A DNA stretch of 64,000 bases, from the sequence record OR699282.2, one strand, 5' to 3'. The notes below the pieces were generated by a model, which saw only the letters and a list, made by a program, of their open reading frames with translations, ran no database searches and was not told the origin of the DNA. Positions 10,831-23,458 of this stretch are shown piece by piece. The stretch comes from Escherichia phage BAU.Micro_ELP-22. Position numbers and translations under genes: made by a program. How positions within the stretch are numbered: position 1 is the stretch's first letter; each line of letters starts with the position of its first letter.

Positions 10831-10850
10831 TAGTAATAAGGAAACGAATC

Positions 10851-11192: not shown

Positions 11193-11206
11193 TATAAAAA
11201 AATAGT

Positions 11207-11265
11207 TTGACAATAGATTATAGTACTGTATAATAGTTTACATCAAGGGGAGAATAGTTCTCCCC
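11207..11265 (+). promoter_or_regulatory. PeSL-like promoter cassette
   Basis: TTGACA 11207-11212, TATAAT 11229-11234, hairpin GGGGAGAATAGTTCTCCCC 11247-11265. Confidence 0.7.
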
Positions 11266-11287
11266 ACTAACAGAGAGAGAAAACAAA

Positions 11288-11500
11288 ATGGCTAATATCC
11301 GGTCGAAATTAAAAAATGCAAAACAAGTTTTATTTTCAGATCATGAATACTTTAATAAAGATATTACAGGAGTTACAAGTATCAAGGAAGTAAAAGAAAA
11401 AACCGGCGTTTTGTGTGATGTGCGATTAGTTGGAACATTTGGGAATAACGTGCTATATCGCTGCGGTGATTACAATTTTACACTGACTATCATTAACTAA
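11288..11500 (+). CDS. hypothetical protein (70 aa)
   Basis: ATG 11288, SD-like GAGAGAGA. Confidence 0.65.
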   Translation: MANIRSKLKNAKQVLFSDHEYFNKDITGVTSIKEVKEKTGVLCDVRLVGTFGNNVLYRCGDYNFTLTIIN

Positions 11501-11512
11501 AAATATTATCAC

Positions 11513-11548
11513 AGTACTATTGACATAGTTTGATAGTACTGACATAAT
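11513..11548 (+). promoter_or_regulatory. Class-II promoter
   Basis: AGTACT 11513-11518, TTGACA 11520-11525, AGTACT 11535-11540, CATAAT 11543-11548. Confidence 0.65.
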
Positions 11549-11582
11549 AACTTTTATCAACTACACTACTAAGGAATTAAAA

Positions 11583-11762
11583 ATGGCTATCATCGCAAAA
11601 ACTGAAATCATCGGCCTGGATTCTATCATCATGACGTTTGAAGATCAAAAAGGTATGTATGTGGTTTCCTATGGTGATTATGTTCGGGAGTATGAAACGG
11701 TAGACGAAGCCTTTGAAAGTTACATTCGCCAGGTGAATAAAGCATACGACGACTACCGCTAA
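11583..11762 (+). CDS. hypothetical protein (59 aa), not in ORF track
   Basis: ATG 11583 with SD AAGGAA; downstream of class-II promoter. Confidence 0.55.
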   Translation: MAIIAKTEIIGLDSIIMTFEDQKGMYVVSYGDYVREYETVDEAFESYIRQVNKAYDDYR

Positions 11763-11773
11763 AATATATTACC

Positions 11774-11817
11774 AGTACTATTAAATCTATTGACAATGTT
11801 TGATAGTACTGTATAAT
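11774..11817 (+). promoter_or_regulatory. Class-II promoter
   Basis: AGTACT upstream, TTGACA 11790-11795, TATAAT 11812-11817. Confidence 0.6.
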
Positions 11818-11861
11818 AAGTTTTATCAACAGTAGTTAACTTAACCTAAGAGAGAAACAAA

Positions 11862-12005
11862 ATGATCGCACTGGATTCATTCATCGACGCAGTACTGGCA
11901 AAAACTGGCGAGGATCTGACCGCAGAACAATACGCAATGATCGAGCAATGCCAGCAAGACGGTAAATCGGTGAAAGATACTGTTAAGATTATCCGCAAGA
12001 TGTAA
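11862..12005 (+). CDS. hypothetical protein (47 aa), not in ORF track
   Basis: ATG 11862 with SD AAGAGAGA; followed by stem-loop 12012-12037. Confidence 0.5.
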   Translation: MIALDSFIDAVLAKTGEDLTAEQYAMIEQCQQDGKSVKDTVKIIRKM

Positions 12006-12011
12006 GATTAT

Positions 12012-12040
12012 AGCCCACTGGTTAACGCTGGTGGGCTTTA
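12012..12040 (+). terminator. Stem-loop, possible terminator (weak U-run)
   Basis: AGCCCAC..GTGGGCT then TTTAATTC. Confidence 0.45.
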
Positions 12041-12110
12041 ATTCATTACCCTATACAATGCCAGTACTAAACCGTTTATCTCGTTAGAATGCGTTACAGG
12101 ACGTTTAACA

Positions 12111-12308
12111 ATGATTAGCATGAAATCAGTACAAAAACAAATAGAAACATTATCAAAAATTAAACGTAAACAGTACTCCTTAGAATATACAATCAATGGT
12201 AACTATCATCTAATGAAAGAAAATAATTTTATAGTCATTGATGAATCATTGCAAATCATTAGTATAGTACTGAAAGCATTAATCAATGACAGAAAAAAAT
12301 TAAAATAA
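12111..12308 (+). CDS. hypothetical protein (65 aa)
   Basis: ATG 12111; weak SD; AT-rich. Confidence 0.4.
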   Translation: MISMKSVQKQIETLSKIKRKQYSLEYTINGNYHLMKENNFIVIDESLQIISIVLKALINDRKKLK

Positions 12309-12312
12309 ACTA

Positions 12313-12388
12313 TTGACAATATCATCCAGTACTGGCATAATACTTACATCAAGACGAGAACGTCACTAACCCATAGGGTGCACAAATG
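12313..12388 (+). repeat. Repeated intergenic element (B-type sequence, plus orientation)
   Basis: TTGACA 12313-12318, CATAAT 12336-12341, then ACATCAAGACGAGAACGTCACTAACCCATAGGGTGCACA. Confidence 0.55.
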
Positions 12389-12403
12389 TAACTGTATAAT
12401 ATT

Positions 12404-12434
12404 GATCAAAAAATGATCTGATCAATACTTGATC
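12404..12434. promoter_or_regulatory. Cluster of four GATC sites (TGATCA repeats)
   Basis: GATC at 12404, 12415, 12420, 12431 within 31 bp, directly downstream of TATAAT 12395-12400. Confidence 0.4.
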
Positions 12435-12639
12435 AATTTGCGTAAAGTAGTATAATTCTATGCAGTTGGTTAGACGAAAGGTTATGATTAGTAGTGCAAG
12501 TGTATAAAAATTTTCATGGTGTATCGTTCCGCACATATGGGGATGAATATGTGGTATCATGTGGATTGGAAAAAGTAAGAACAAGTAATATTATTGTCGC
12601 ATTACAGTACTATAGTATTTTTATAATGAGGTTAAAATA

Positions 12640-12897
12640 ATGGCTGTAGGATTCGCGAAAGATGGGGCCGAACAAGACGAGATTAACGCAGTGATTCAGG
12701 CTGCCGTTAACCACGCTAGAAAGCAAATTAACGCACAAATAGAATCACTGATACATTGCCTCGACTGCGGCGATATAATCCCTGAGAAACGACGCCAGGC
12801 CGTTAAGGGATGTAAGTACTGCATAACTTGCCAGGAGGATCATGATAGTACTTTTAAACGTCCCCCGCGTAATTGTTGGCATAGATCTATGAGATAA
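12640..12897 (+). CDS. TraR/DksA-family C4 zinc-finger protein (85 aa)
   Basis: C-x2-C...C-x2-C (CLDCGDIIPEKRRQAVKGCKYCITC) C-terminal zinc-finger arrangement typical of TraR/DksA; SD GAGG. Confidence 0.7.
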   Translation: MAVGFAKDGAEQDEINAVIQAAVNHARKQINAQIESLIHCLDCGDIIPEKRRQAVKGCKYCITCQEDHDSTFKRPPRNCWHRSMR

Positions 12898-12904
12898 AAA
12901 GTAA

Positions 12905-12932
12905 TTGACAGTACTGAAAGATAGTGTATAAT
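12905..12932 (+). promoter_or_regulatory. sigma70-like promoter
   Basis: TTGACA 12905-12910, 16-bp spacer with CAGTACTG, TATAAT 12927-12932. Confidence 0.65.
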
Positions 12933-12961
12933 GTTTTATATCTTAACTGAGGATAGTAATC

Positions 12962-13318
12962 ATGGGAATACAACATATCACGCGTACTACTGACAATGGC
13001 GAGATCACTGGCTATCAAGTACAGGGCAAAGTAGCACAATTGCAGTACTGGTTTGTTAAACGTGGAATCATTGCACCGGATCTTGATTATGACCGTGTAG
13101 CGTTTATTGATTCTCTTTATGTTGATCCTGATAGTCGGGGCAATGGTGAAGGTAACGAATTAATGAATGCCTTTATCGATGCCGCCGATGATTCAGATTG
13201 TATCATCTTAGAATGCGATACGGGAGAAGATAACGCCTTTAATCTTAAAGAATGGTACGAAGGTTTCGGATTCGAGGTATTGATAGATAGTGAATATCCT
13301 ATCATGATTTTATCATAG
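12962..13318 (+). CDS. GNAT-family N-acetyltransferase (118 aa)
   Basis: IDSLYVDPDSRGNGEGNELMNAFIDAA matches the GNAT acetyl-CoA binding motif (V-x-P-x-x-R-G-x-G); SD GAGGA. Confidence 0.65.
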   Translation: MGIQHITRTTDNGEITGYQVQGKVAQLQYWFVKRGIIAPDLDYDRVAFIDSLYVDPDSRGNGEGNELMNAFIDAADDSDCIILECDTGEDNAFNLKEWYEGFGFEVLIDSEYPIMILS

Positions 13319-13378
13319 TACTTGCATTTAGTTTTCAGTACTGTTATAGTACTTGCATCAAGGGGAAACATCTTCCCC
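13317..13378 (+). promoter_or_regulatory. PeSL-like promoter cassette
   Basis: AGTACT 13317-13322, TTGCAT 13322-13327, TATAGT 13345-13350, hairpin GGGGAA-ACAT-CTTCCCC 13363-13378. Confidence 0.6.
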
Positions 13379-13396
13379 TACTAAGAGGAAATAAAA

Positions 13397-13585
13397 ATGG
13401 AAAACTTATCAAGTATTTTAGTACAAGATGATTTCGGTAATCCTGGAAGTGCTATCATTGTTCGGGGTAATAAAGCAACATTTGTTATTGCTGGTGGACC
13501 TGTACAGCGTAGCATTAAAAACAATGCCGTTACTATTAATAATGTACGCTATCGCTTAGATAAAGAATTGATTCATAAACTGTAA
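13397..13585 (+). CDS. hypothetical protein (62 aa)
   Basis: ATG 13397, SD AAGAGGAA. Confidence 0.65.
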   Translation: MENLSSILVQDDFGNPGSAIIVRGNKATFVIAGGPVQRSIKNNAVTINNVRYRLDKELIHKL

Positions 13586-13612
13586 TATTAATTTAATAGA
13601 GGATAACAATAA

Positions 13613-13936
13613 ATGTACATTCATACTACTATCACAAAGGAAGTCCGTTGCCAGTTCGAAAGTATTCCGGGCGTATGTTTCATCACTGGTACGTTTTCCC
13701 CTGGTGATCGTGATAATCCAGTACTGTTACAATTACGCCATCCATCATGGGATAAAGCATTTGATCTACCGTTGAATGAATTCGCAACTACTGCTGAAAA
13801 GTACATTAAAAATATTCGCGAGAATGATCGACTATTCATTAATGCTTTTAGTGATTCCGCGTTAAGCGAGATCCACGGCGTATTGGTTGCAATCATGGAA
13901 TCAATGCAGAAAACTAAATTCAAACAAGGTGAATAA
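13613..13936 (+). CDS. hypothetical protein (107 aa)
   Basis: ATG 13613, SD AGAGGA; no own promoter, likely co-transcribed. Confidence 0.65.
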   Translation: MYIHTTITKEVRCQFESIPGVCFITGTFSPGDRDNPVLLQLRHPSWDKAFDLPLNEFATTAEKYIKNIRENDRLFINAFSDSALSEIHGVLVAIMESMQKTKFKQGE

Positions 13937-13942
13937 AAACTA

Positions 13943-14002
13943 TTGACAATGCAATCCAGTACTGTATAATAAGTTACATGAAGGGGAGAAATGATTCTCC
14001 CC
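13943..14002 (+). promoter_or_regulatory. PeSL-like promoter cassette
   Basis: TTGACA 13943-13948, TATAAT 13965-13970, hairpin GGGGAGAAATGATTCTCCCC 13983-14002. Confidence 0.7.
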
Positions 14003-14019
14003 ACTGAGAGGAAAGAAAA

Positions 14020-14232
14020 ATGCAAGGTCAACTAATCGTTCGTAAATGGTCTGATACTAACGAAAAACCGTGGGATGTACAATACATCGGACCGGATGGG
14101 GTATCACGTTATCAGCCTGGCGTAACGCATAGTACTGAGCAATATGCCGCCGCTCACCGCGAACGCCTGTTAGAATCCATGAAACAGGGATACGGTGAAA
14201 AATTCATTCAAGATCATTGGCTGAAAGATTAA
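14020..14232 (+). CDS. hypothetical protein (70 aa)
   Basis: ATG 14020, SD GAGAGGAAAG. Confidence 0.7.
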   Translation: MQGQLIVRKWSDTNEKPWDVQYIGPDGVSRYQPGVTHSTEQYAAAHRERLLESMKQGYGEKFIQDHWLKD

Positions 14233-14249
14233 TAGAAGGAGTACAGCTT

Positions 14250-14342
14250 ATGCAAATGAATCCGATGATTATTGTTTTAGCTGTACTTATGATCATTCAT
14301 GCAATTGTAGAAGTATTAACGCAATCAGGAGTAATAAAATGA
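14250..14342 (+). CDS. tiny hydrophobic peptide (30 aa), candidate membrane peptide
   Basis: ATG 14250 with strong SD AAGGAG at 7 nt; MQMNPMIIVLAVLMIIHAIVEVL hydrophobic; not in ORF track. Confidence 0.5.
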   Translation: MQMNPMIIVLAVLMIIHAIVEVLTQSGVIK

Positions 14343-14512
14343 TTCAAGTAGAATTATCAGTACTGAAAGATCTGTTTTATCGGTTAGGTACTACTGGAGA
14401 GTATCCTAAAAGTGATACCGCAAAACTTTTTGTATCACTCGACTTATGGCAACGCGAACAATTAGTAATGTCCTGGCGTAAAGGTAAAGCAGATAGCGAG
14501 GTGAAAGCATGA
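14339..14512 (+). CDS. hypothetical protein (57 aa)
   Basis: ATG 14339 overlaps upstream stop (ATGA); not in ORF track. Confidence 0.45.
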   Translation: MIQVELSVLKDLFYRLGTTGEYPKSDTAKLFVSLDLWQREQLVMSWRKGKADSEVKA

Positions 14513-14658
14513 AAGAATTCTTATTCGAAGTAGTGTTTCAAGGTGTCGGTAGTAACCAACTGATTCGCTCAAGTGGTTACAATGTTAACCAGGCATGGAA
14601 TAACATTAAACAAATGTACCCGAACGCTATCACCTATCGCAACCCGAAAGAAGTTTAA
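14509..14658 (+). CDS. hypothetical protein (49 aa)
   Basis: ATG 14509 overlaps upstream stop (ATGA); third member of a coupled mini-operon. Confidence 0.45.
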   Translation: MKEFLFEVVFQGVGSNQLIRSSGYNVNQAWNNIKQMYPNAITYRNPKEV

Positions 14659-14686
14659 AAATAATTGAAAAAGGGATTGACTCCGG

Positions 14687-14750
14687 TCAGTCCCTTTGCT
14701 ATTATATACGCATAGAAACAAATCAGCCCACAGGGTGCATAAATGTATCT
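14687..14750 (+). repeat. Repeated intergenic element, type A
   Basis: TTGACTCCGGTCAGTCCCTTTGCTATTATAT then CGCATAGAAACAAATCAGCCCACAGGGTGCATAAATGTATCT. Confidence 0.6.
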
Positions 14751-14790
14751 ATTGTTAGCTGGTGGCTAGTACTGAAAACTATTTTTAAAA

Positions 14791-14823
14791 AGTACTTGCA
14801 TTGTACTTAGAATCAAGTATAAT
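14791..14823 (+). promoter_or_regulatory. PeSL-type promoter driving non-coding element
   Basis: AGTACT 14791-14796, TTGCAT 14796-14801, TATAAT 14818-14823. Confidence 0.65.
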
Positions 14824-14830
14824 GTTTTAC

Positions 14831-14903
14831 ATCAGGACGGGGAACGAAACAAGTAACCCCGTTAAGTAGTCCAGGAGTAAGACATACGAAAACCTCCCCT
14901 GAT
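14831..14903 (+). ncRNA. Candidate small structured RNA (second copy)
   Basis: ATCAGGACGGGGAACGAAACAAGTAACCCCGTTAAGTAGTCCAGGAGTAAGACATACGAAAACCTCCCCTGAT; same layout as 3706-3780. Confidence 0.4.
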
Positions 14904-14911
14904 AAAAAAGA

Positions 14912-14940
14912 TTGACAATAGTTTGAAGTACTGATAAAAT
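14912..14940 (+). promoter_or_regulatory. sigma70-like promoter
   Basis: TTGACA 14912-14917, 17-bp spacer with AGTACT, TAAAAT 14935-14940. Confidence 0.5.
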
Positions 14941-14972
14941 AATCACATCAACTACTGATAAGGAAACATAAA

Positions 14973-15248
14973 ATGCGGATTCTACTGACAGCTAACGAAA
15001 TCGAACAAGTACTGACTACTAACCTGGAAGACTGGAAACGTGAAGCAGATATCCAGGCGGTTCAATGGCTTAACGATAAGTTAACGCCGGATGACTTAAG
15101 CAAGATTGTAGATCCTCAATTCTACGAAGATATTCACGACACCGCGTTAAGCGTCGAGGATGTACTAGATAAGCACTACATTGATACTGATTTGCAGGTT
15201 TACGGTCGTAAAAACTTTATCACTATTCACGATATTTACAATAATTAA
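14973..15248 (+). CDS. hypothetical protein (91 aa)
   Basis: ATG 14973, SD AAGGAA. Confidence 0.7.
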   Translation: MRILLTANEIEQVLTTNLEDWKREADIQAVQWLNDKLTPDDLSKIVDPQFYEDIHDTALSVEDVLDKHYIDTDLQVYGRKNFITIHDIYNN

Positions 15249-15249
15249 G

Positions 15250-15310
15250 TATTGACAAAGTATCTTAGTACTGTATAATAGTTTACATCGAGAGGGGGAA
15301 TGGTTCCCCT
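15250..15310 (+). promoter_or_regulatory. PeSL-like promoter cassette (identical 44-bp promoter, copy 1 of 3)
   Basis: TTGACA 15252-15257, TATAAT 15274-15279, hairpin GGGGGAATGGTTCCCC; same promoter at 15519 and 18096. Confidence 0.7.
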
Positions 15311-15334
15311 CCTAACTAAAAGAGAGAAATAAAA

Positions 15335-15517
15335 ATGGCTAAGTGCACTATCTGTAATAAAGAAATAGTATTAGTTCCAAGTGCCCGTGAACGTGCCGCT
15401 CGGTTCGGTGGCAAAGCGTCAGACTATACAAAAATGTTTACTGCCCATACAGCTTGCCAGGTAGCAAAACGTTCACAAGAAAGCGTAGAATTAATGCGTA
15501 AACTTTCCAAAAAATAA
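15335..15517 (+). CDS. small Cys-containing protein (60 aa)
   Basis: ATG 15335; CTICNKE ... HTACQ possible zinc-ribbon; SD-like AGAGAGA. Confidence 0.65.
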   Translation: MAKCTICNKEIVLVPSARERAARFGGKASDYTKMFTAHTACQVAKRSQESVELMRKLSKK

Positions 15518-15518
15518 G

Positions 15519-15582
15519 TATTGACAAAGTATCTTAGTACTGTATAATAGTTTACATCAAGTGAGGGGAAACGGTTCCCCTC
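15519..15582 (+). promoter_or_regulatory. PeSL-like promoter cassette (copy 2 of 3)
   Basis: TTGACA 15521-15526, TATAAT 15543-15548, hairpin GAGGGGAAACGGTTCCCCTC 15564-15582. Confidence 0.7.
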
Positions 15583-15605
15583 CTAACAAAGAGAGAGAAA
15601 TAAAA

Positions 15606-15929
15606 ATGGCTATGATCCTTACCCAGAAAGTGGAACTGAAAATTGTAACCTCCTTTGACATTAACGTTAATCGGTGGACTGATTCACACGGCAATACTTA
15701 CCACTCTTGCTACGTGTCTGCTTTAATTGGCGACCGCTGGGAAGACCTGGGACACGAAACCTTTACATACGGTTACGGTACACAAGGCGAATACACGGGC
15801 TTGGAGATCATTAAAGAAACCGTTATAGGTTTCAACCCGAAAGAAAAAGTTATTCACCGCATCGAGGAAGAGATCAACAAAGAAATAACAGTTCGCTACC
15901 ACGATGTAAAACGTAAGAAAGACATGTAA
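15606..15929 (+). CDS. hypothetical protein, early paralog family C (107 aa)
   Basis: Track ORF 15561 trimmed to ATG 15606; paralog of 8398..8721. Confidence 0.7.
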   Translation: MAMILTQKVELKIVTSFDINVNRWTDSHGNTYHSCYVSALIGDRWEDLGHETFTYGYGTQGEYTGLEIIKETVIGFNPKEKVIHRIEEEINKEITVRYHDVKRKKDM

Positions 15930-15943
15930 TAGAATCCATTTAA

Positions 15944-15980
15944 AGTACTATTTGACATTGCCCAGATAGTACTTTATAAT
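15944..15980 (+). promoter_or_regulatory. Class-II promoter
   Basis: AGTACT 15944-15949, TTGACA 15952-15957, 17-bp spacer with AGTACT, TATAAT 15975-15980. Confidence 0.65.
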
Positions 15981-16024
15981 AGACTCTAACTTGTAGTACT
16001 AACTTAACTAATAGGATGTATACC

Positions 16025-16420
16025 ATGATTACTAAATTCTACGCTACCCGTGAAGCTGCCCGTATTGTTGCACGCGAGGAAGGCGAAACATTTAAAGACA
16101 TGGGCAAAGATGCACCGAAAGGTCAACGCTGGGCCGTACAGTTCAAAGAGATCTCTGATATTGTGAATTCACCGGAGCCAGTACTAACAGCAGCAGAACT
16201 AAAACGAGCGGATTTACTGGCGTCAATACTTGATGCACAAGATGAGTTTATCGCTGATTCTGATATCAAAGTACAGACAAACCATACCGCATGGACTCAC
16301 GCGGATCACCTGGCAAACCTTAAGCGTCCAAGTGAACTGATTCGCAACCAGAAAGAGATCCGACACGACCGTAAGGGTAATCGTGTAACAGTATACAGTA
16401 AACGCCGCCAGGTTATCTAA
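16025..16420 (+). CDS. hypothetical protein, early paralog family B (131 aa)
   Basis: ATG 16025 (SD AGGA at 8 nt; alternative ATG 16016); paralog of 2837..3103. Confidence 0.65.
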   Translation: MITKFYATREAARIVAREEGETFKDMGKDAPKGQRWAVQFKEISDIVNSPEPVLTAAELKRADLLASILDAQDEFIADSDIKVQTNHTAWTHADHLANLKRPSELIRNQKEIRHDRKGNRVTVYSKRRQVI

Positions 16421-16441
16421 TAACTTGCAGTACTAACAACA

Positions 16442-16468
16442 CGGCGGGATCAGTTCCCGCCTTTTTTA
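16442..16468 (+). terminator. Rho-independent terminator
   Basis: GGCGGGA-TCAG-TTCCCGCC then TTTTTTA. Confidence 0.75.
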
Positions 16469-16481
16469 TAGGACAAACAAA

Positions 16482-16736
16482 ATGATTAAGGTTCAACTAT
16501 ATAAAGATAACATCTTACGGGTACACTATAAAGCACCACAGAGAATCATCACAAAGGCCGTACAGCTTGCTAATGAGTTTATTAATGGTAACCTATTACC
16601 TAGGAAGTTAAGCAACGGGAAACTGCGTGTAATCGACGTGGACACTAACAACAGGATAGTAATCGAGAACACAGGAAAGATAAACCTTTATGAGCATCAA
16701 CAATACAATAAGAAAATAAAACTAATATCACGTTGA
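16482..16736 (+). CDS. hypothetical protein (84 aa)
   Basis: ATG 16482; SD weak. Confidence 0.6.
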   Translation: MIKVQLYKDNILRVHYKAPQRIITKAVQLANEFINGNLLPRKLSNGKLRVIDVDTNNRIVIENTGKINLYEHQQYNKKIKLISR

Positions 16737-16790
16737 CAGTACTCAAATGTTTTAGTACTATATGTACATACCAACACGGGGAGAAACAAA

Positions 16791-17033
16791 ATGATTACTT
16801 TAGAAAAACGTATCAAAGAAACTACATCGCTGGTGGAACTGTTAACAGTACTCAAATGTAAAACTACTCGGTTTAGTACACCGGACTTTATTAATATGGT
16901 TGATGTTAACGGTCGTTATCGTATTGCAGTAGAACAAGGCACGGCAAAAGTATTCAGTACTAAAAACACTAAGGAAGTGATTCACGCGGTTAGTGTGAAA
17001 AAAGTGGTTGCCATTGATAGTAAAGTACTGTAA
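16791..17033 (+). CDS. hypothetical protein (80 aa)
   Basis: ATG 16791, SD GGGGAG. Confidence 0.65.
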   Translation: MITLEKRIKETTSLVELLTVLKCKTTRFSTPDFINMVDVNGRYRIAVEQGTAKVFSTKNTKEVIHAVSVKKVVAIDSKVL

Positions 17034-17064
17034 GATAGTTTCATTAACTCAAGGAGAACATGCA

Positions 17065-17649
17065 ATGCGTAATTATACTAAATTCATCCGTACCCTGTCA
17101 GAAATGGAAACCAACAAAGAGATCCTTTCAGCTTGTCGGTTAGCTGGCCTGGAGATCATCGGTGCTGGTTCTTCCCGTATAGTTTTCGCTTTAAATGATC
17201 GGTTAGTGATTAAGGTCGCGAATTGTGATGCGGGTGTAGAACAAAATGAAACTGAATGTAAGGTATGGAATTTTTTAGACTATGACCGCCCTCAGTTGAA
17301 ACAGTACTTTGCAAAGGTGCATATGCATTTATGCGATCCTGATAATATGTTTATCGTTATGGATCGGTTGAGTACTGCAAGCAAAGGCAGTGTGAAGCAC
17401 GTAAACGCGTGCAATGAATTAAAGTACAATATTAAACGTAATGCAATCGAACGCCAGCACCGCTTTGCTGATGCACTACAACACGTTGATGATACATTAT
17501 CAACACTAACGATAAGAGATATCAGAAAACAGAATATCGGCCAGGATCGTAATGGACTTATTAAAGTACTTGATTACGGTTTAACCAGCAATATCTGGAA
17601 TCAGTACTATAAAAAGCGTGATGTGGCAGCAAGTAAGGTAACACGATAA
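17065..17649 (+). CDS. minimal Ser/Thr protein kinase-like protein (194 aa)
   Basis: Track ORF 17008 trimmed to ATG 17065 (SD AAGGAG, 8 nt); Gly-rich loop GAGSSRIVF, Lys in VIKVAN, catalytic-loop-like RDIRKQNIG, DFG-like LDYG. Confidence 0.65.
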   Translation: MRNYTKFIRTLSEMETNKEILSACRLAGLEIIGAGSSRIVFALNDRLVIKVANCDAGVEQNETECKVWNFLDYDRPQLKQYFAKVHMHLCDPDNMFIVMDRLSTASKGSVKHVNACNELKYNIKRNAIERQHRFADALQHVDDTLSTLTIRDIRKQNIGQDRNGLIKVLDYGLTSNIWNQYYKKRDVAASKVTR

Positions 17650-17667
17650 AAAAGATTAAAAAAGGGA

Positions 17668-17746
17668 TTGACTCCGGTCAGTCCCTTTGCTATTATATAT
17701 CCATTGAGAGATAACTCACTGACCCATAGGGTGCGGAAGTGTATCT
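17668..17746 (+). repeat. Repeated intergenic element, type A
   Basis: TTGACTCCGGTCAGTCCCTTTGCTATTATAT then CATTGAGAGATAACTCACTGACCCATAGGGTGCGGAAGTGTATCT. Confidence 0.6.
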
Positions 17747-17785
17747 ATTATATAAGTATTCAGTACTGAAAACTATTTGATAAAA

Positions 17786-17850
17786 AGTACTTGCATTGTA
17801 CTTAGAATCAAGTATAATGTTTTATATCGAGAGGGGGAAATGGTTCTCCC
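17786..17850 (+). promoter_or_regulatory. PeSL-like promoter cassette
   Basis: AGTACT 17786-17791, TTGCAT 17791-17796, TATAAT 17813-17818, hairpin GGGGGAAATGGTTCTCCC 17833-17850. Confidence 0.7.
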
Positions 17851-17872
17851 TGGTATATTAAGGAATAAAATC

Positions 17873-18094
17873 ATGACTACAATGACTTGCATTTACGCTT
17901 CCAATCTTCTGAATGATGCGGCCTTTAATGTTGATTCAGAATATCAATGTTATCGGGATGAAAATAAAAAAGTTTTTGTAGTTGATAATAATGGTTTCCA
18001 TATTGAATTGCAATCCGGTTTCACTGGTGTTGATGGTAAATCAGTATGGGGCGTACAGGATGATAAAGGCACATATCATTTTAAACGTAATTAA
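17873..18094 (+). CDS. hypothetical protein (73 aa)
   Basis: Track ORF 17777 trimmed to ATG 17873; SD AAGGAA. Confidence 0.7.
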   Translation: MTTMTCIYASNLLNDAAFNVDSEYQCYRDENKKVFVVDNNGFHIELQSGFTGVDGKSVWGVQDDKGTYHFKRN

Positions 18095-18095
18095 G

Positions 18096-18156
18096 TATTG
18101 ACAAAGTATCTTAGTACTGTATAATAGTTTACATCAAGGGGAGAATAGTTCTCCCC
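18096..18156 (+). promoter_or_regulatory. PeSL-like promoter cassette (copy 3 of identical promoter)
   Basis: TTGACA 18098-18103, TATAAT 18120-18125, hairpin GGGGAGAATAGTTCTCCCC 18138-18156. Confidence 0.7.
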
Positions 18157-18180
18157 ACACCAATAAAAGGAAACATAATT

Positions 18181-18453
18181 ATGTCTAGCTACTCCGCTAC
18201 TATGATCATTAAAGATATGAACGGTAATCCTACTTCTGCTGGTGGATCATTTGGAAACATTAATTTAGATGGTCGGTTATCCATGCAATCAGCAATCGAT
18301 GCAGCGAAAGAAGTTTTTAAGAATGAATGTACTGTTAGTAAGCTGGATTATATGGGATTTGCTATCGAAAAAACTAATCGTTTTGTGAACTACAAAAAAC
18401 CATTGATGATTGATACTAACCTGAAAGCTAACGAAGTGGAGTACTTATTATGA
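18181..18453 (+). CDS. hypothetical protein (90 aa)
   Basis: ATG 18181, SD AAAGGAAA. Confidence 0.7.
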   Translation: MSSYSATMIIKDMNGNPTSAGGSFGNINLDGRLSMQSAIDAAKEVFKNECTVSKLDYMGFAIEKTNRFVNYKKPLMIDTNLKANEVEYLL

Positions 18454-18641
18454 CAGTTGAAGAAGTTAAAAAAGTACTGGCAGTACTACGCTATCATAAT
18501 CATTGCAAGGTGAAGAATGATCCTGATTATCTCGATTCATCCCTGGAAGAGGATACACTACAAGCAATAAGCCATATGCAAACATTAGCAAAGCGTATGA
18601 CTGAAAAGAACATGCCGGACTATATCGGAAATAAAATTTAA
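18450..18641 (+). CDS. hypothetical protein (63 aa)
   Basis: ATG 18450 overlaps upstream stop (ATGA). Confidence 0.6.
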   Translation: MTVEEVKKVLAVLRYHNHCKVKNDPDYLDSSLEEDTLQAISHMQTLAKRMTEKNMPDYIGNKI

Positions 18642-18643
18642 AA

Positions 18644-18710
18644 AGTACTTGCATTGTAGTTAGATTAACGTATAATGTTTTATATCGAGAGGGGGAAATG
18701 GTTTCCCCTC
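18644..18710 (+). promoter_or_regulatory. PeSL-like promoter cassette
   Basis: AGTACT 18644-18649, TTGCAT 18649-18654, TATAAT 18671-18676, hairpin GAGGGGGAAATGGTTTCCCCTC 18687-18710. Confidence 0.7.
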
Positions 18711-18728
18711 AAGTCCAGGAGATACACC

Positions 18729-18992
18729 ATGAACACTATCGAAATCACTATCAATGCACACGTATACGACAACGTAGTACTGCAAACTACTATGACCGCT
18801 AATGATACCAGTACTTTGCGGAATACTGTTATTAGTGCCGTATGTGCCGCTATCGGTGATGTCGCCCTGGAAAATGCAAAACACGTAAACGATGGTTTCA
18901 CTATGTGCAAACGTGATAACGCAAAACATATCATCGTAGAAGGTTACGGCGGTGTAGAATATAATGTTTATATGAAAAAAGTACTTGCATAA
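18729..18992 (+). CDS. hypothetical protein (87 aa)
   Basis: Track ORF 18675 trimmed to ATG 18729 (SD AGGAGA); C-terminal codons overlap -35 of next PeSL. Confidence 0.7.
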   Translation: MNTIEITINAHVYDNVVLQTTMTANDTSTLRNTVISAVCAAIGDVALENAKHVNDGFTMCKRDNAKHIIVEGYGGVEYNVYMKKVLA

Positions 18993-19041
18993 TAACTAAA
19001 ACAAAGTATAATGTTTTGCATAGGGGGAGATATCCTCCCCC
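18980..19041 (+). promoter_or_regulatory. PeSL-like promoter cassette
   Basis: AGTACT 18980-18985, TTGCAT 18985-18990, TATAAT 19007-19012, hairpin GGGGGAGATATCCTCCCCC 19023-19041. Confidence 0.7.
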
Positions 19042-19059
19042 ACTAAAAGGAGTAATAAA

Positions 19060-19284
19060 ATGGCTAACTTTGATGAACTGATGCGGGAAGTAGCTACCCT
19101 GGCAGAAGAAAAGAAATCATTCGATTCTATCTATAGCACCGCTCACCGTGATTCAGTACTGGCATGTAACCAGGATCAAAAAGATGAACTAATCGCCACC
19201 TATCATGAAGCATGGAAGTACTACCGACAATGGGAGAAAGAAGAAAGAGAGTCTACCATTGACGGCCTCAATAATCTAATCTAA
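19060..19284 (+). CDS. hypothetical protein (74 aa)
   Basis: ATG 19060, SD AAGGAG. Confidence 0.7.
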   Translation: MANFDELMREVATLAEEKKSFDSIYSTAHRDSVLACNQDQKDELIATYHEAWKYYRQWEKEERESTIDGLNNLI

Positions 19285-19296
19285 AAGTTTTATTTC

Positions 19297-19333
19297 AGTA
19301 CTATTGACATAGCTTGATAGTACTGATGTAATA
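19297..19333 (+). promoter_or_regulatory. Class-II promoter
   Basis: AGTACT 19297-19302, TTGACA 19304-19309, AGTACT in spacer, -10-like GTAATA. Confidence 0.55.
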
Positions 19334-19360
19334 ACTTTACTAACTACAAGGGGAAACATA

Positions 19361-19618
19361 ATGGAACAGTTCACACAATATCGGGTAAATCCTCAAGCTA
19401 TGGCCTACGTAGAAGACCATAAAACATTACCAGTACTAACACCAATTAAAGGCCATATCTATCGTGCAATGTCATGGAATACCGCCCAGGATAGATATAC
19501 TACCGCTGGCGTGGGTATGTATTGCGGGAATGGTGAATGGTTTGATCCAAATAATCCGGTAGCCATTGACAGTACTGAAAAAATGAAATGGGCCGACTAC
19601 ATCGAAGATATTTCATAA
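19361..19618 (+). CDS. hypothetical protein (85 aa)
   Basis: ATG 19361, SD GGGGAAA. Confidence 0.65.
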   Translation: MEQFTQYRVNPQAMAYVEDHKTLPVLTPIKGHIYRAMSWNTAQDRYTTAGVGMYCGNGEWFDPNNPVAIDSTEKMKWADYIEDIS

Positions 19619-19625
19619 AAACTAT

Positions 19626-19686
19626 TTGACAGTACTAACCAGTAATGTATAATGTTTTACATAGAGCGGGGGAATAGTTCTCCCGC
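19626..19686 (+). promoter_or_regulatory. PeSL-like promoter cassette
   Basis: TTGACA 19626-19631, TATAAT 19648-19653, hairpin GCGGGGGAATAGTTCTCCCGC 19666-19686. Confidence 0.7.
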
Positions 19687-19909: not shown

Positions 19910-19930
19910 CAAAAAAGAATAAAAAAGGGA

Positions 19931-20004
19931 TTGACTCCGGTCAGTCCCTTTGCTATTATATACGCATAGACAAAAACTAGCCCACAGGGTGCATAGGTGT
20001 ATCC
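19931..20004 (+). repeat. Repeated intergenic element, type A
   Basis: TTGACTCCGGTCAGTCCCTTTGCTATTATAT then CGCATAGACAAAAACTAGCCCACAGGGTGCATAGGTGTATCC. Confidence 0.6.
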
Positions 20005-21505: not shown

Positions 21506-21703
21506 ATGCGTATTTTAACTAAAGAACAGCACCACGAAAGACTTATCAATAACATGGCTATGATAATGTATAAGTCCCATGACCGTGGTATTGCCTATAA
21601 GCGTGAATTAATTATGGCACTATTCATTGGAACTAACTTTCAGGAAAGGTATGTCAACGATTGGATTTGGTATTTAATTGAAGATATAACGAGTAAACTA
21701 TGA
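21506..21703 (+). CDS. small tandem family F1 paralog (65 aa)
   Basis: ATG 21506, SD GGAG; C-terminal FIGTNFQERYV..WI..LI..I core. Confidence 0.65.
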   Translation: MRILTKEQHHERLINNMAMIMYKSHDRGIAYKRELIMALFIGTNFQERYVNDWIWYLIEDITSKL

Positions 21704-21900
21704 AAATGCGTATTTTAAATAAAGAAGAATATCAATCACTGTTACGTAAAAACTTCACAAAGATTTATAATACAGACACACACGTAGAACGAATGGAGTT
21801 ATACCTTTTGATTACTTTGGGAACTAACTATCAGGAAAGATGGGTGATTCAATATATGGATACATTGAAAAATAAAATATTGTCCACGAGGAAACAATGA
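21700..21900 (+). CDS. F1 paralog (66 aa)
   Basis: ATGA stop/start overlap; LGTNYQERWV core. Confidence 0.65.
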   Translation: MKMRILNKEEYQSLLRKNFTKIYNTDTHVERMELYLLITLGTNYQERWVIQYMDTLKNKILSTRKQ

Positions 21901-22106
21901 AAACTATAACACGAACCCAATCATACGGTCTTATCTTGAAATACATGGACTTAATGGTGGATATCAGCAAAGACCTTCCTAAAACTGAAATTGAAGTTGC
22001 AAGAGCAGAGATCCGCATGTTGGCTGTACTGAACACAAACCATCAGGAAGATTATGTTGAAGAATGGATTCGATTTTTAATAGAAGATATTAAGAGTAAA
22101 CTATGA
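21897..22106 (+). CDS. F1 paralog (69 aa)
   Basis: ATGA overlap; LNTNHQEDYV core. Confidence 0.65.
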   Translation: MKTITRTQSYGLILKYMDLMVDISKDLPKTEIEVARAEIRMLAVLNTNHQEDYVEEWIRFLIEDIKSKL

Positions 22107-22318
22107 TTATTATAGAAAACTCATATCAATATACTGAACGCATCGCTGCCAGACAACTTGAAATCCTCATAATATACGAAGAGACTTCTGATTTAAACTT
22201 AGCCGAGGTATTGGAAAATGATATACTATTGGGTGCATTCTTAGGAACAGACTATCAGAAGTATTATGAGGAAAAGTATTTGTCATCTCTTGAGAAATAT
22301 ATCAGGAGCAAATTATGA
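22103..22318 (+). CDS. F1 paralog (71 aa)
   Basis: ATGA overlap; LGTDYQKYY core. Confidence 0.65.
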   Translation: MIIIENSYQYTERIAARQLEILIIYEETSDLNLAEVLENDILLGAFLGTDYQKYYEEKYLSSLEKYIRSKL

Positions 22319-22527
22319 TTTTTTTAACACCAGAAGAATATAAGAAACGTTTCAATTCCGCACAGGGTGAAATCTTACTTATATACCTTTCAAATGCAGA
22401 CCTTAACTTATCAAGGGTATTAGAAAAAGATTTACTTATGGGTGCATTCCTTGATACAGACTTTCAGGTGTATTATGTAGGGGAATACTTAATTGCACTT
22501 CAGAATTATATCAGGAGTAAACTATGA
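22315..22527 (+). CDS. F1 paralog (70 aa)
   Basis: ATGA overlap; LDTDFQVYYV core; close to 22103..22318. Confidence 0.65.
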   Translation: MIFLTPEEYKKRFNSAQGEILLIYLSNADLNLSRVLEKDLLMGAFLDTDFQVYYVGEYLIALQNYIRSKL

Positions 22528-22742
22528 AACATTTAAGTAACTCCGAGAAGAATAAAATTATCGTTGCTGCAATAAACAAATATTTTACACTTCCTCACAC
22601 AGAAGGTTTATGTGTAAGGGAACACAGGATAAACACCACCGATATACGCATGATGGCTGTACTGGGGACGAACTTTCAGGAAGAGTATGTTGTTGCACAC
22701 ATAGTTGCCCTCACTGATCTAATAAGGGACAAATGTAAATGA
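22524..22742 (+). CDS. F1 paralog (72 aa)
   Basis: ATGA overlap; LGTNFQEEYV core. Confidence 0.65.
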   Translation: MKHLSNSEKNKIIVAAINKYFTLPHTEGLCVREHRINTTDIRMMAVLGTNFQEEYVVAHIVALTDLIRDKCK

Positions 22743-22996
22743 AACACTTAACTGATGATGAATTTGAAACTATAATTCGTAAACTAACCCCCATCACAAG
22801 GATAGTCTACGGTGACCCCAGCCTTACATGGAACCAAATGCGAGCTAAAGTTAATGAGCTATGGTTGCTGTACTTTATGGGGACTCAATATCAAGATAAG
22901 TTTTGCACAGAATATATCGAACAATTAACGAATGTTATACAGGATAAACTAGATGATTATTTGCTCACAAAACATGAAGACTTTATCAGGAGTTGA
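22739..22996 (+). CDS. F1 paralog (85 aa) with C-terminal extension
   Basis: ATGA overlap; MGTQYQDKF core; stop displaced so the reading frame runs into the next gene. Confidence 0.6.
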   Translation: MKHLTDDEFETIIRKLTPITRIVYGDPSLTWNQMRAKVNELWLLYFMGTQYQDKFCTEYIEQLTNVIQDKLDDYLLTKHEDFIRS

Positions 22997-23225
22997 GTAT
23001 CAAACTGCCCTATTCTCTTTAATCCATGCCCTTAGAAAAAACAATGCCTTATATGGTGCACCTGAAGTGGATGTTATCAACGGTGAACTTTATCTTATGA
23101 AATTCATTGGAACAAACTATCAAGATCTGTTCATTCAACGATACTTATCAGCATTAAGAAACCAAATCCAATATAAAACCCAGAGAGCCAAAAAAGAATG
23201 GAATAAACAATGCGACACAGACTAA
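22953..23225 (+). CDS. F1 paralog (90 aa; start uncertain, alt ATG 22974)
   Basis: IGTNYQDLFI core. Confidence 0.6.
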   Translation: MIICSQNMKTLSGVEYQTALFSLIHALRKNNALYGAPEVDVINGELYLMKFIGTNYQDLFIQRYLSALRNQIQYKTQRAKKEWNKQCDTD

Positions 23226-23458
23226 ATCACAAAATGTATTGTAAACTATTACAGACACTGGCACAGAAACACTATGACACGGTATCTGGAATATTACCCT
23301 ATGATATCATGCGTTTACTTCACTGTGAGGCCGAGATGCTTGTACTGATGACAGGCACTGATAAAAACGCAATTGCCAAATCAATAGATATGTTCATCGA
23401 AGCACACTGCCAACACATGAGAACCGAAATCTGGAGGAAAGAGAATGATAATCCTTAA
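23210..23458 (+). CDS. F1 paralog, divergent (82 aa; start uncertain)
   Basis: MTGTDKNAIAKSIDMFI core variant. Confidence 0.55.
   Translation: MRHRLNHKMYCKLLQTLAQKHYDTVSGILPYDIMRLLHCEAEMLVLMTGTDKNAIAKSIDMFIEAHCQHMRTEIWRKENDNP

What the first reader, a model, noticed from the sequence alone, without database searches (positions are those of the whole stretch)
17065..17649. Minimal Ser/Thr kinase-like protein among early genes
The 194-aa product has a glycine-rich loop (GAGSSRIVF), a beta-3-like lysine (VIKVAN), a catalytic-loop-like RDIRKQNIG and a DFG-like LDYG in the right order and spacing for a stripped-down protein kinase fold. Phage early kinases (for example T7 gp0.7) phosphorylate host transcription and translation factors, so this is a plausible host-takeover effector.
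Basis: partly seen in the sequence, partly recalled or inferred. Interest (0 to 1): 0.58.

Follow-up and report, generated by a model that had tools for sequence, protein, structure and literature searches.

The report
Stripped-down early kinase of jumbo phage
The gene is real and encodes a very small protein-kinase-like enzyme, made from the first DNA a giant E. coli phage injects. It belongs to a widespread, uncharacterised phage family whose substrate is unknown, and databases had already guessed "kinase".

Summary
**Observation:** confirmed.

**Conservation:** the motif residues are the conserved ones in a phage family (PHROG 4301). In 89 sequences G35, S36, R38, K50, Q60, N61, E64, D170 and G172 are invariant, and D152 is present in 88.

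**Fold evidence:**
- A family profile hits only protein kinases in the PDB (MKK4, E=3e-5).

**What is missing:** the protein, and the whole family, stops about 13-24 residues after the DFG-like DYG. There is no activation segment and no αF-αI lobe (Hanks subdomains VIII-XI). The same truncation is documented for the active Shigella kinase OspG. From the sequences, T7-type phage kinases look similarly short.

**Context:** the window is the left end of an Asteriusvirus jumbo coliphage. The gene lies inside the ~21-kb direct terminal repeat, among consensus sigma-70 promoters, so early expression is likely.

**Limits:** it is not a sequence relative of T7 gp0.7. Protein substrates, Ser/Thr specificity and a host-takeover role are inferred, not shown.

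**Novelty:** modest. Several GenBank records and one paper already call it a putative kinase.

The parts
16733..16761 (+). Sigma-70-like promoter (TTGACA-17-TACTAT), the likely start of the two-gene unit that ends with the kinase gene
   Evidence: Promoter scan, 10/12 match. It sits just after the stop of ORF 16482-16736. Function is inferred, not tested.
16791..17033 (+). 80-aa ORF immediately upstream, probably co-transcribed with the kinase gene. Function unknown.
   Evidence: No PHROG match. Weak similarity to the gene directly upstream of the kinase homologue in phages EJP2 and SE_PL (tblastn E 7e-6 and 4e-7).
17051..17056 (+). Ribosome-binding site AAGGAG, 8 nt before the ATG
   Evidence: Read from the sequence.
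17065..17649 (+). CDS for the 194-aa minimal protein-kinase-like protein (PHROG 4301)
17161..17187 (+). Gly-rich loop G33-A-G35-S36-S-R38-I-V40-F41 (beta1-beta2)
   Evidence: G35, S36 and R38 are invariant and V40 is present in 82/89. Strands 30-35 and 38-42 in the model.
17212..17214 (+). K50, the beta3 (VAIK-type) lysine
   Evidence: Invariant in 89/89. Lies in the Pfam Pkinase alignment, residues 46-181 to model positions 26-152.
17242..17256 (+). alphaC motif Q60-N61-x-x-E64. E64 is the presumed salt-bridge partner of K50.
   Evidence: Q60, N61 and E64 are invariant. Helix 55-70 in the model.
17515..17541 (+). Catalytic loop R151-D152-I-R-K-Q-N157-I-G159
   Evidence: D152 in 88/89 and G159 in 88/89. 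N157 is variable in the family. Aligned to HRDIKPSN of MKK4.
17572..17580 (+). DFG-equivalent D170-Y171-G172
   Evidence: D170 and G172 are invariant and Y171 is present in 66/89. Aligned to DFG of MKK4, PAK and PknB-type kinases.
17587..17649 (+). Short C-terminal helix (residues 175-182, conserved YY at 181-182), then the tail and stop. The chain ends where a kinase activation segment would begin.
   Evidence: Model helix H175-182. Family members end 0-25 residues after this point. Y181/Y182 are conserved.
17661..17696 (+). Terminator-like hairpin AAAGGGATTGACTCCGGTCAGTCCCTTT that also carries the -35 of the next promoter (TTGACT-17-TATTAT)
   Evidence: The identical 28-mer also occurs at 14670 and 19924, with 0 expected by chance.

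Best explanation
The gene encodes a catalytically competent, ultra-minimal member of the protein-kinase-like superfamily.

**Likely chemistry (inferred)**
- It most likely binds Mg-ATP between the Gly-rich loop (G33/G35/S36/R38), the K50-E64 pair and D170.
- D152 would act as catalytic base to transfer the gamma-phosphate to a hydroxyl group, most probably on proteins.

**Consequences of the truncation (inferred)**
- The chain ends right after the DFG-like DYG, so there is no activation segment, P+1 loop or alphaF-alphaI lobe.
- The enzyme should therefore be unregulated, with little built-in substrate selectivity, as in T7 kinase.
- Alternatively it may need a partner protein to be fully active, as OspG needs E2~ubiquitin.

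**Expression and role (inferred)**
- The gene is transcribed by host sigma-70 RNA polymerase from the terminal repeat, and that repeat is duplicated at both genome ends. If DNA enters from the left end, this repeat is also the first DNA in the cell.
- The product would then act in the first minutes of infection on host proteins, or possibly phage proteins. Plausible targets are transcription, translation or defence proteins.

**Shown versus inferred**
- Shown here: the gene, the residue conservation, the fold class, the truncation, the phage restriction, the position in the repeat and the promoter context.
- Inferred: catalytic activity, protein substrates, timing and biological role.
For: **Gene and family**
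- ORF plus RBS.
- PHROG 4301, E=1.8e-41.
- 288 representatives, mostly 160-290 aa.
- K50, E64, D170, G35, S36, R38, Q60 and N61 are invariant, and D152 is present in 88/89.
- Even 152-164-aa members keep all motifs.

**Kinase homology**
- The family profile against PDB sequences hits only kinases among the best 60: MKK4 3.3e-5, PAK5 5e-4, BTK 1e-3 and the SteC N-lobe 3.6e-3.
- Single-sequence phmmer gives 19 hits, all protein kinases.

**Structure**
- AF2 with the 89-sequence alignment gives pLDDT 89.8 and pTM 0.87.
- Foldseek/PDB: the 50 hits listed are all kinase-like, including APH(2''), MEK1, DYRK1A, CLK1, MTR kinase and Lpg2603, with probability about 1.0.
- BFVD hits include T7-type Ser/Thr kinases at E of about 3e-5.

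**Truncation is a family trait**
- Proteins, and each unit of the tandem fusions, end within about 0-25 residues of query position ~183.

**Precedents for activity without subdomains VIII-XI**
- OspG is an active kinase despite lacking them (PMC12756638).
- T7 kinase is hyperactive and promiscuous, and its predicted structure resembles CLK1 and DYRK1A (PMC13645617).
- The Asteriusvirus T7K homologue also stops 22 aa after its DP motif.

**Early context**
- Window position 1 equals the left physical end of phage vB_Ec-M-J, whose DTR spans 1-21525.
- The fEgEco12 DTR of 20,993 bp was verified by restriction digests, and the gene lies at 16161-16745.
- Genomes deposited with both repeats carry two copies.
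- There are 13 perfect TTGACA-N16-18-TATAAT sites, all on the + strand, 11 of them in the first 20 kb, against 0.23 expected.

**Phage restriction**
- All 59 phage records with a homologue are from enterobacterial or Xanthomonas hosts. All but one are 320-386-kb genomes, and those I recognise are RaK2-like.
- Only 9 hits were found in 185,579 cellular genomes, all on MAG contigs.
Against: - No experiment exists for any member of the family.
- The Pfam Pkinase score is below threshold (17 versus 31.7 bits), and no Pfam, NCBIfam or other named family covers it.
- TM-scores to solved kinases are modest (0.4-0.49 of the query).
- The best Foldseek hit is a small-molecule kinase, APH(2'').
- The metal-binding Asn of the catalytic loop (N157) is not conserved family-wide.
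- The lobe that binds protein substrates in classical kinases is absent.
- Early timing rests on promoter consensus and map position, not on transcript data.
Confidence: 0.55

Rival explanations
1. It is a small-molecule or nucleic-acid kinase rather than a protein kinase. A kinase-like ATP-binding core would phosphorylate a metabolite, an antibiotic-like compound, a nucleotide immune signal, or RNA or DNA, as APH, methylthioribose kinase or the archaeal tRNA kinase ArkI do.
For: - The top Foldseek hits are APH(2'')-IIa and -Ib, and 5-methylthioribose kinase is also listed.
- The protein-substrate-binding lobe of classical kinases is missing.
- Neighbours of distant homologues include nucleotide and RNA enzymes: a CCA-adding-type PolyA_pol, HD, NUDIX and thymidine kinase.
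Against: - Sequence-level similarity is to protein kinases only.
- From my own knowledge, APH and MTR kinases bind their substrates with a helical C-terminal subdomain; that region is also absent here.
- No metabolic partner gene is conserved across the family.
- OspG and T7 kinase show that the truncated design is compatible with protein phosphorylation.
Confidence: 0.2
2. The kinase-like scaffold performs a different ATP-dependent chemistry. Candidates are AMPylation (as in SelO), glutamylation (as in SidJ) or a SAICAR-synthetase-type ligation.
For: - The family has unusual invariant residues not typical of kinases: R38 in the Gly-rich loop and Q60-N61 in alphaC.
- The catalytic-loop Asn is variable.
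- Kinase folds with non-kinase chemistry are documented, for example SidJ (papers listed).
Against: - The canonical K/E/D/D set is intact and in canonical order and spacing.
- No sequence similarity to PurC, SelO or SidJ families appeared in Pfam, NCBIfam or PDB searches.
Confidence: 0.1
3. It is a catalytically dead ATP- or protein-binding module (pseudokinase) that acts as a decoy, sponge or scaffold.
For: - It has an extremely reduced C-lobe.
- N157 is not conserved in the family.
- Tandem 2x and 3x fusions could be binding arrays.
Against: - The lysine, glutamate and both aspartates are invariant or nearly so across sequences only 20-25% identical, and in every unit of the tandem fusions I read. 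That is the signature of retained catalysis.
Confidence: 0.1
4. It is a chance motif pattern in a non-functional or mis-called ORF.
For: The single-sequence Pfam hit is sub-threshold.
Against: - The gene is conserved at 79-100% in about 35 Asteriusvirus and related genomes and at 36-40% in RaK2-like phages.
- The family has hundreds of representatives.
- The structure model is confident.
- The RBS, promoter and terminator are in place.
Confidence: 0.01

Closest known systems
Shigella OspG / E. coli NleH minimal effector kinases
   Same: - Similar size: OspG is 196 aa by my recollection, against 194 aa here.
- A kinase core that retains the lysine, the catalytic Asp and the DFG-type Asp but lacks Hanks subdomains VIII-XI, yet is an active kinase (PMC12756638; PMC13395416).
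- This is the closest match in design.
   Different: - No sequence relation was detected. OspG and NleH are not among the best 60 profile hits or the listed fold hits.
- OspG is a secreted effector acting in eukaryotic cells and is activated by E2~ubiquitin. The phage protein acts inside bacteria and no partner is known.
- The phage family domain is shorter still: some members are 152-164 aa and end about 13 residues after DYG.
Phage T7 protein kinase gp0.7 (T7K; Pfam PF27024, PHROG 2828/15752)
   Same: - A phage-encoded, early-region, compact kinase-like domain.
- The predicted fold resembles DYRK1A and CLK1 in both cases (PMC13645617).
- Foldseek links the model to T7-type kinases at E of about 3e-5.
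- The Asteriusvirus T7K homologue likewise ends 22 aa after its DFG-equivalent.
- T7K shows what such an enzyme can do: promiscuous Ser/Thr/Tyr phosphorylation that disarms defence systems.
   Different: - It is a different family: BLASTP finds nothing, hhalign probability is 0.4%, and there are no cross-hits between PHROGs.
- The motifs differ: GxGSSR / QNxxE / DYG here versus GNGHFS / DMHSGN / DPV in T7K.
- There is no shut-off/DNA-binding C-terminal domain.
- This phage genus has its own separate T7K homologue (Sharanji gp144), which lies outside the window.
Eukaryotic-like Ser/Thr/Tyr protein kinases (Pfam PF00069/PF07714)
   Same: - Order and spacing of the Gly-rich loop, beta3 Lys, alphaC Glu, catalytic-loop Asp(-x4-Asn) and DFG-type Asp.
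- The best sequence hits are MKK4, PAK, BTK and PKC.
   Different: - Below the Pfam threshold.
- The third glycine of the Gly-rich loop is an invariant Arg.
- The catalytic-loop Asn is not conserved in the family.
- The entire activation segment and the alphaF-alphaI half of the C-lobe are absent.
Aminoglycoside phosphotransferases APH(2'') and other small-molecule kinases of the kinase-like superfamily
   Different: - High rmsd (13-14 Å over about 200 columns).
- No sequence hits.
- The helical substrate-binding subdomain of these enzymes, as I know them, has no counterpart in the 24 residues that follow DYG here.
HopBF1 and SteC (other 'minimal' bacterial effector kinases)
   Same: - Described as minimal or atypical kinase folds with reduced C-lobes (PMC9950578; PMC13395416).
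- The SteC N-lobe is a weak profile hit (E=3.6e-3).
   Different: - SteC still needs its alphaF-containing C-lobe for activity, and the phage family has none.
- No significant full-length similarity.

Membership tests
PHROG 4301 (phage protein family, function unknown) | Significant match to the family HMM over most of its length | tested here: met
   E=1.8e-41, 143 bits, residues 3-188 against profile positions 13-185 of 225.
Protein kinase domain (Pfam PF00069) | Score at or above the Pfam gathering threshold | tested here: not met
   17 bits against a cut-off of 31.7. Only 6 of 113 family members hit Pkinase at E<=0.01.
Protein kinase domain (Pfam PF00069) | Gly-rich loop, beta3 Lys and alphaC Glu (subdomains I-III) | tested here: met
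   GxGSSRxV with G35, S36 and R38 invariant. K50 and E64 are invariant. The Pfam Pkinase alignment covers this region in register. The third Gly is replaced by Arg.
Protein kinase domain (Pfam PF00069) | Catalytic loop (H)RDxxxxN and DFG (subdomains VIb, VII) | tested here: inconclusive
   D152 is present in 88/89 and D170/G172 are invariant. They align to HRD and DFG of MKK4. N157 is present in this protein, but the family has S/N/H/T there.
Protein kinase domain (Pfam PF00069) | Activation segment/APE and the alphaF-alphaI lobe (subdomains VIII-XI) | tested here: not met
   The chain ends 24 residues after D170, and family members end 0-25 residues after query position ~183. The Pkinase match stops at model position 152 of 263. 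The model has only one short helix after DYG.
Protein-kinase-like (PKL) fold superfamily | Bilobal nucleotide-binding core: five-stranded N-lobe with alphaC, then a catalytic-loop/DFG beta-hairpin region | tested here: met
T7 gp0.7 kinase family (PF27024; PHROG 2828/15752/18305) | Sequence membership and the DPV motif in place of DFG | tested here: not met
   No BLASTP similarity. hhalign probability 0.4%. No hit to these PHROGs at E<=1, while T7K and Sharanji gp144 hit them at 1e-169 and 1e-97. The motif here is DYG.
T7 gp0.7 kinase family (functional analogy) | Early expression and promiscuous phosphorylation of host proteins | not testable with these tools
   Early expression is inferred from DTR position and sigma-70 promoters. 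Activity is untested.
OspG/NleH minimal kinases | Active kinase core lacking subdomains VIII-XI | tested here: inconclusive
   The architectural feature is met (OspG description in PMC12756638). Homology was not shown: these proteins are absent from the listed sequence and fold hits. Activity and partner dependence are not testable here.
Aminoglycoside/small-molecule kinases (APH-like) | Kinase-like core plus a helical substrate-binding C-terminal subdomain | tested here: not met
   Core similarity is present, but no C-terminal subdomain exists and there is no Pfam APH hit.
SAICAR synthetase-like | PurC sequence family and ligase active site | tested here: not met

The most novel reading that the evidence does not exclude
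PHROG 4301 may be the smallest autonomous kinase-type catalytic domain known. Its core is about 150 aa, ends 13 residues after the DFG equivalent, and lacks the whole alphaF-alphaI scaffold. It might become active only by self-association, as the natural 2x and 3x tandem fusions hint, or by docking onto a host protein that supplies the missing C-lobe. Alternatively its substrate may not be a protein at all, for example a nucleotide immune signal or a nucleic acid. Either way it would be a new class of jumbo-phage immediate-early effector, distinct from T7 kinase.
Probability: 0.15. Interest if true: 0.75.

Novelty: new member of a known kind. Interest (0 to 1): 0.45.

Why it matters
Phage kinases have recently been shown to act as broad anti-defence weapons (T7 kinase, PMC13645617). 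This gene represents a second, sequence-unrelated family of phage mini-kinases.

- The family is widespread in jumbo phages and in metagenomic phage contigs.
- In the four RaK2-like genomes with annotated or verified terminal repeats it sits inside the repeat, among strong host-type promoters. That repeat may be the first DNA to enter the cell.
- No member has been studied experimentally.

If it is active, it would show how little of the kinase fold is needed for catalysis. It would also give a tractable handle, since E. coli K-12 phages are available, on the immediate-early programme of RaK2-like jumbo phages. If it is inactive, or acts on non-protein substrates, that would be the more surprising result.

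Tried and rejected
**Searches that found no relationship or no named family**
- Direct relationship to T7 gp0.7: BLASTP, profile versus sequence and profile versus profile with a T7K family alignment were all negative. The family HMM also misses T7K and Sharanji gp144 at E<=1.
- NCBIfam gave nothing.
- PADLOC gave only weak hits to the kinase of defence system PD-T4-6 (E 7e-4 to 6e-3). I read these as generic kinase similarity.
- The tools returned no Pfam family for the wider family. Stored annotations are empty for 100 of 101 homologues; the single stored accession, PF06315, was not followed up. Per-member scans gave only sporadic Pkinase and ABC1 hits.

**Searches within the window**
- A second copy or paralogue: none found. 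Weak tblastn hits of both kinases near 33.3-33.7 kb (E 0.5-0.9) are not significant.
- A T7K-type kinase: absent from the window.

**Gene neighbourhood**
- No partner gene is conserved. Neighbours of distant homologues are unrelated.
- Within RaK2-like phages only general synteny remains, plus a weakly conserved 80-aa upstream ORF.
- All neighbours are PHROGs of unknown function.

**Cellular genomes**
- The first pattern scan found nothing.
- The second scan gave 9 MAG contigs only.

**Structure and fold searches**
- The first AlphaFold run, with 14 sequences, was too poor to use (pLDDT 56).
- The AFDB50 fold library was unavailable.

**Other**
- Ser/Thr/Tyr content of DTR proteins versus the rest of the window (16.9% versus 19.4%; kinase 13.9%). 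This mimics the T7 "early proteins avoid S/T/Y" test, but the difference is small and there is no late-gene baseline, so I draw no conclusion.
- Supplementary tables of the T7K paper were not available, so I could not check which G17 protein was listed.

Full report
**1. The observation**

The ORF at 17065-17649 (+) is real. It has an ATG start, AAGGAG 8 nt upstream, and encodes 194 aa.

**2. Where the window comes from**

- The window is 95-98% identical to Asteriusvirus jumbo coliphages such as PBECO4, 121Q, Sharanji, G17 and fEgEco12.
- Window position 1 aligns with position 1 of phage vB_Ec-M-J, whose record annotates a direct terminal repeat (DTR) at 1-21525. The window is therefore the left physical end of the genome, and the DTR ends near window position 21.4 kb.
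- In fEgEco12 the 20,993-bp DTR was confirmed by PhageTerm and restriction digests, and the orthologue (g044) lies at 16161-16745.
- Genomes deposited with both repeats carry two copies of the gene.
- The DTR is a run of short, same-strand genes. The window holds 13 perfect TTGACA-N16-18-TATAAT sites, all on the + strand, 11 of them in the first 20 kb, against 0.23 expected.
- The kinase gene appears to be the second gene of a short unit:
  - a promoter-like site at 16733-16761;
  - an 80-aa ORF at 16791-17033;
  - the kinase gene;
  - a 12-bp-stem hairpin at 17661-17688, which also carries the -35 of the next promoter. The identical 28-mer recurs at 14670 and 19924.
- "Among early genes" is therefore well supported by inference, but no transcript data were found. 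Authors of the related phage CBB interpreted an RpoD-like promoter cluster in the same way.

**3. The family**

- The protein belongs to PHROG 4301, function unknown (E=1.8e-41). No NCBIfam family matches, and no Pfam family matches above threshold.
- An exhaustive search of 1.84 billion cluster representatives found 288 relatives at E<=1e-3, mostly 160-290 aa.
- A profile search of 5.8 billion proteins returned 101, all unnamed or "hypothetical" apart from one "predicted transcriptional regulator", and many on 100-360-kb contigs.
- tblastn against 50,697 phage genomes found homologues in 59 records, from phages of Escherichia, Klebsiella, Salmonella, Yersinia, Erwinia, Pectobacterium and Xanthomonas. 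All but one are 320-386-kb genomes, and those I recognise are RaK2-like.
- Pattern scans of 185,579 cellular genomes found only nine hits, all on MAG contigs.
- I read the family as essentially phage-restricted.

**4. Conservation**

- In 89 sequences, most only 18-28% identical to the query, the invariant positions are G35, S36, R38, K50, G57, Q60, N61, E64, D170 and G172. D152 and G159 are each present in 88/89.
- These positions map onto the Gly-rich loop, the beta3 lysine, the alphaC glutamate, the catalytic-loop aspartate and the DFG aspartate.
- The family consensus is GxGSSRIV[YF] ... VLKIAKNxKGIAQNxxE ... GDLxKx[SNH]WG ... VLIDYGLTxxVxxxYY.
- Two features are atypical:
  - an invariant Arg sits where the third Gly of GxGxxG would be;
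  - the catalytic-loop Asn (N157 here) is not conserved family-wide.

**5. Homology to kinases**

- The query alone gives a sub-threshold Pfam Pkinase hit (E=0.004, 17 bits against 31.7), aligned over residues 46-181 to model positions 26-152 of 263.
- phmmer against PDB sequences returns 19 hits, all protein kinases, aligned on the catalytic loop and DFG.
- A family profile raises this to E=3.3e-5 for MKK4. It gives 606 PDB sequences at E<=10, and the best 60 are all kinases.

**6. Structure**

- With 14 sequences AlphaFold2 gave a poor model (pLDDT 56). With 89 sequences it gave pLDDT 89.8 and pTM 0.87.
- I map the predicted elements onto a kinase as follows:

| Residues | Element |
|---|---|
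| 4-26 | two N-terminal helices |
| 30-52 | beta1-beta3 |
| 55-70 | alphaC |
| 96-100 | beta5 |
| 109-117 | alphaD-like helix |
| 133-145 | alphaE-like helix |
| around 152 | catalytic loop |
| 158-160 and 166-168 | two short strands |
| 170-172 | DYG |
| 175-182 | one short helix, then the end of the chain |

- Foldseek against the PDB lists only kinase-like folds: APH(2''), MEK1, DYRK1A, CLK1, MTR kinase and Lpg2603 (E 2.5e-4 to 2e-3, TM 0.4-0.49 of the query).
- From my own knowledge, SAICAR synthetase shares the ancestral nucleotide-binding core and also lacks the helical kinase C-lobe. That would explain its rank once that lobe is missing.
- Against predicted viral structures, the model matches the RaK2 orthologue (TM 0.80), many 140-250-aa phage proteins of unknown function, and T7-type Ser/Thr kinases at E of about 3e-5.

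**7. The truncation is the defining trait**

- Across the family the polypeptide ends within about 0-25 residues of query position ~183, that is 13-15 residues after DYG. This also holds for each unit of natural two- and three-copy tandem fusions (P0022, P0024, P0027).
- The shortest members, 152-164 aa, still carry every motif.
- Hanks subdomains VIII-XI (activation segment, APE, alphaF-alphaI) are therefore absent by design, not through a local frameshift.
- Precedents show this is compatible with activity:
  - OspG is an active kinase lacking subdomains VIII-XI (PMC12756638);
  - the Asteriusvirus T7K homologue ends 22 aa after its DFG-equivalent.
- SteC points the other way. It needs its residual alphaF-containing lobe for activity (PMC13395416), so activity here cannot be assumed.

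**8. Relation to T7 gp0.7**

- There is no detectable sequence relationship, and the two fall in different PHROGs.
- The genus has a separate T7K homologue (Sharanji gp144, WNN14432.1, PHROG 15752, E=1e-97). It lies outside this window.
- The Sharanji paper already lists the orthologue of our gene (WNN14351.1) as "another protein kinase, which function is unknown".
- GenBank records call it "protein kinase domain-containing protein", "serine/threonine-protein kinase PRP4", "serine/threonine-protein kinase" or "putative protein kinase".
- The kinase-like nature of the protein is thus already in databases. Its family-level anatomy and its function are not.

**9. Mechanism**

- Best-supported reading (confidence 0.55): an active, constitutive, low-specificity protein kinase made immediately after DNA entry from host-recognised promoters in the DTR. 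It would act on host or phage proteins, by analogy with T7 kinase, which phosphorylates most of the proteome and disarms defence systems (PMC13645617).
- Shown: the gene, residue conservation, fold class, truncation, phage restriction, DTR position and promoter context.
- Inferred: catalysis, protein substrates, timing and role.
- Rivals:
  - small-molecule or nucleic-acid kinase (0.2);
  - other ATP-dependent chemistry on the kinase scaffold (0.1);
  - pseudokinase or binding module (0.1);
  - chance (0.01).

**10. Verdict**

This is a real, conserved, probably catalytic mini-kinase of a distinct and uncharacterised phage family. It counts as a new member of a known kind (phage-encoded or minimal kinases), and its kinase-like nature has already been flagged by automatic annotation. 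Interest is moderate. It would rise if the domain proves active at about 150 aa, needs a partner in trans, or acts on a non-protein substrate.

Noticed in passing
window 366-19653 (also 44767, 61610): There are 13 perfect sigma-70 consensus promoters (TTGACA-N16-18-TATAAT), all on the + strand, 11 of them in the first 20 kb (0.23 expected). Most share the extended sequence AGTACTGTATAAT, and three are identical 28-mers (15252, 15521, 18098).
   Followed up: partly
window 14670-14697, 17661-17688, 19924-19951: An identical 28-nt hairpin, AAAGGGATTGACTCCGGTCAGTCCCTTT, occurs three times. It looks like a terminator stem that embeds the -35 (TTGACT) of a downstream promoter (TATTAT -10). It may be a composite terminator-promoter cassette between early genes.
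   Followed up: partly
window 1-~21400: Window position 1 coincides with the annotated left physical end of phage vB_Ec-M-J. The first ~21.4 kb correspond to the direct terminal repeat. Gene organisation changes at that boundary, from individually promoted genes with ~85-nt spacers to tightly overlapping genes.
   Followed up: yes
window 21506-27255 (plus 42199-42390): Starting right after the repeat boundary there is an array of 24 tandem paralogous genes of about 65-85 aa with overlapping stops and starts, plus one outlier copy (blastp clustering at E<1e-5). Function unknown.
   Followed up: partly
window 36885-40296, 43539-43901, 46537-47019, 29955-31920: Further tandem paralogue sets: six genes of ~150-165 aa (37984-40296 plus 46537), four of ~120 aa (36885-37974 plus 43539) and three of ~170-190 aa (29955-31920).
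   Followed up: no
outside the window: Sharanji OR545507.1 66182-66856 (L006:30183-30857, - strand): The same phage genus encodes a second, unrelated mini-kinase. It is a T7 gp0.7-type homologue (224 aa, ITDP motif, PHROG 15752) that also stops ~22 aa after its DFG-equivalent. These phages therefore carry two different truncated kinases.
   Followed up: partly
metagenomic proteins P0022 (693 aa), P0027 (782 aa), P0024 (454 aa) and others: The mini-kinase domain occurs as natural tandem fusions of two or three complete copies in one polypeptide, each with intact GSSR, K, QNxxE, D and DYG motifs. This may hint at function as an oligomer.
   Followed up: partly
window ~16700-17030 versus L001, L002 and L003: The segment just upstream of the kinase gene varies between otherwise 96-97% identical phages. 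There are one to two different small ORFs there (for example fEgEco12 g042/g043 against Sharanji gp065/gp064), and megablast breaks the match into 2-5 pieces.
   Followed up: no
window 12349-13026 equivalent (annotated in L001 and L005): The DTR also encodes a DksA-like zinc-finger protein and a GNAT acetyltransferase a few kb upstream of the kinase, according to annotations of fEgEco12 and vB_Ec-M-J. These are other candidates for early host manipulation.
   Followed up: no
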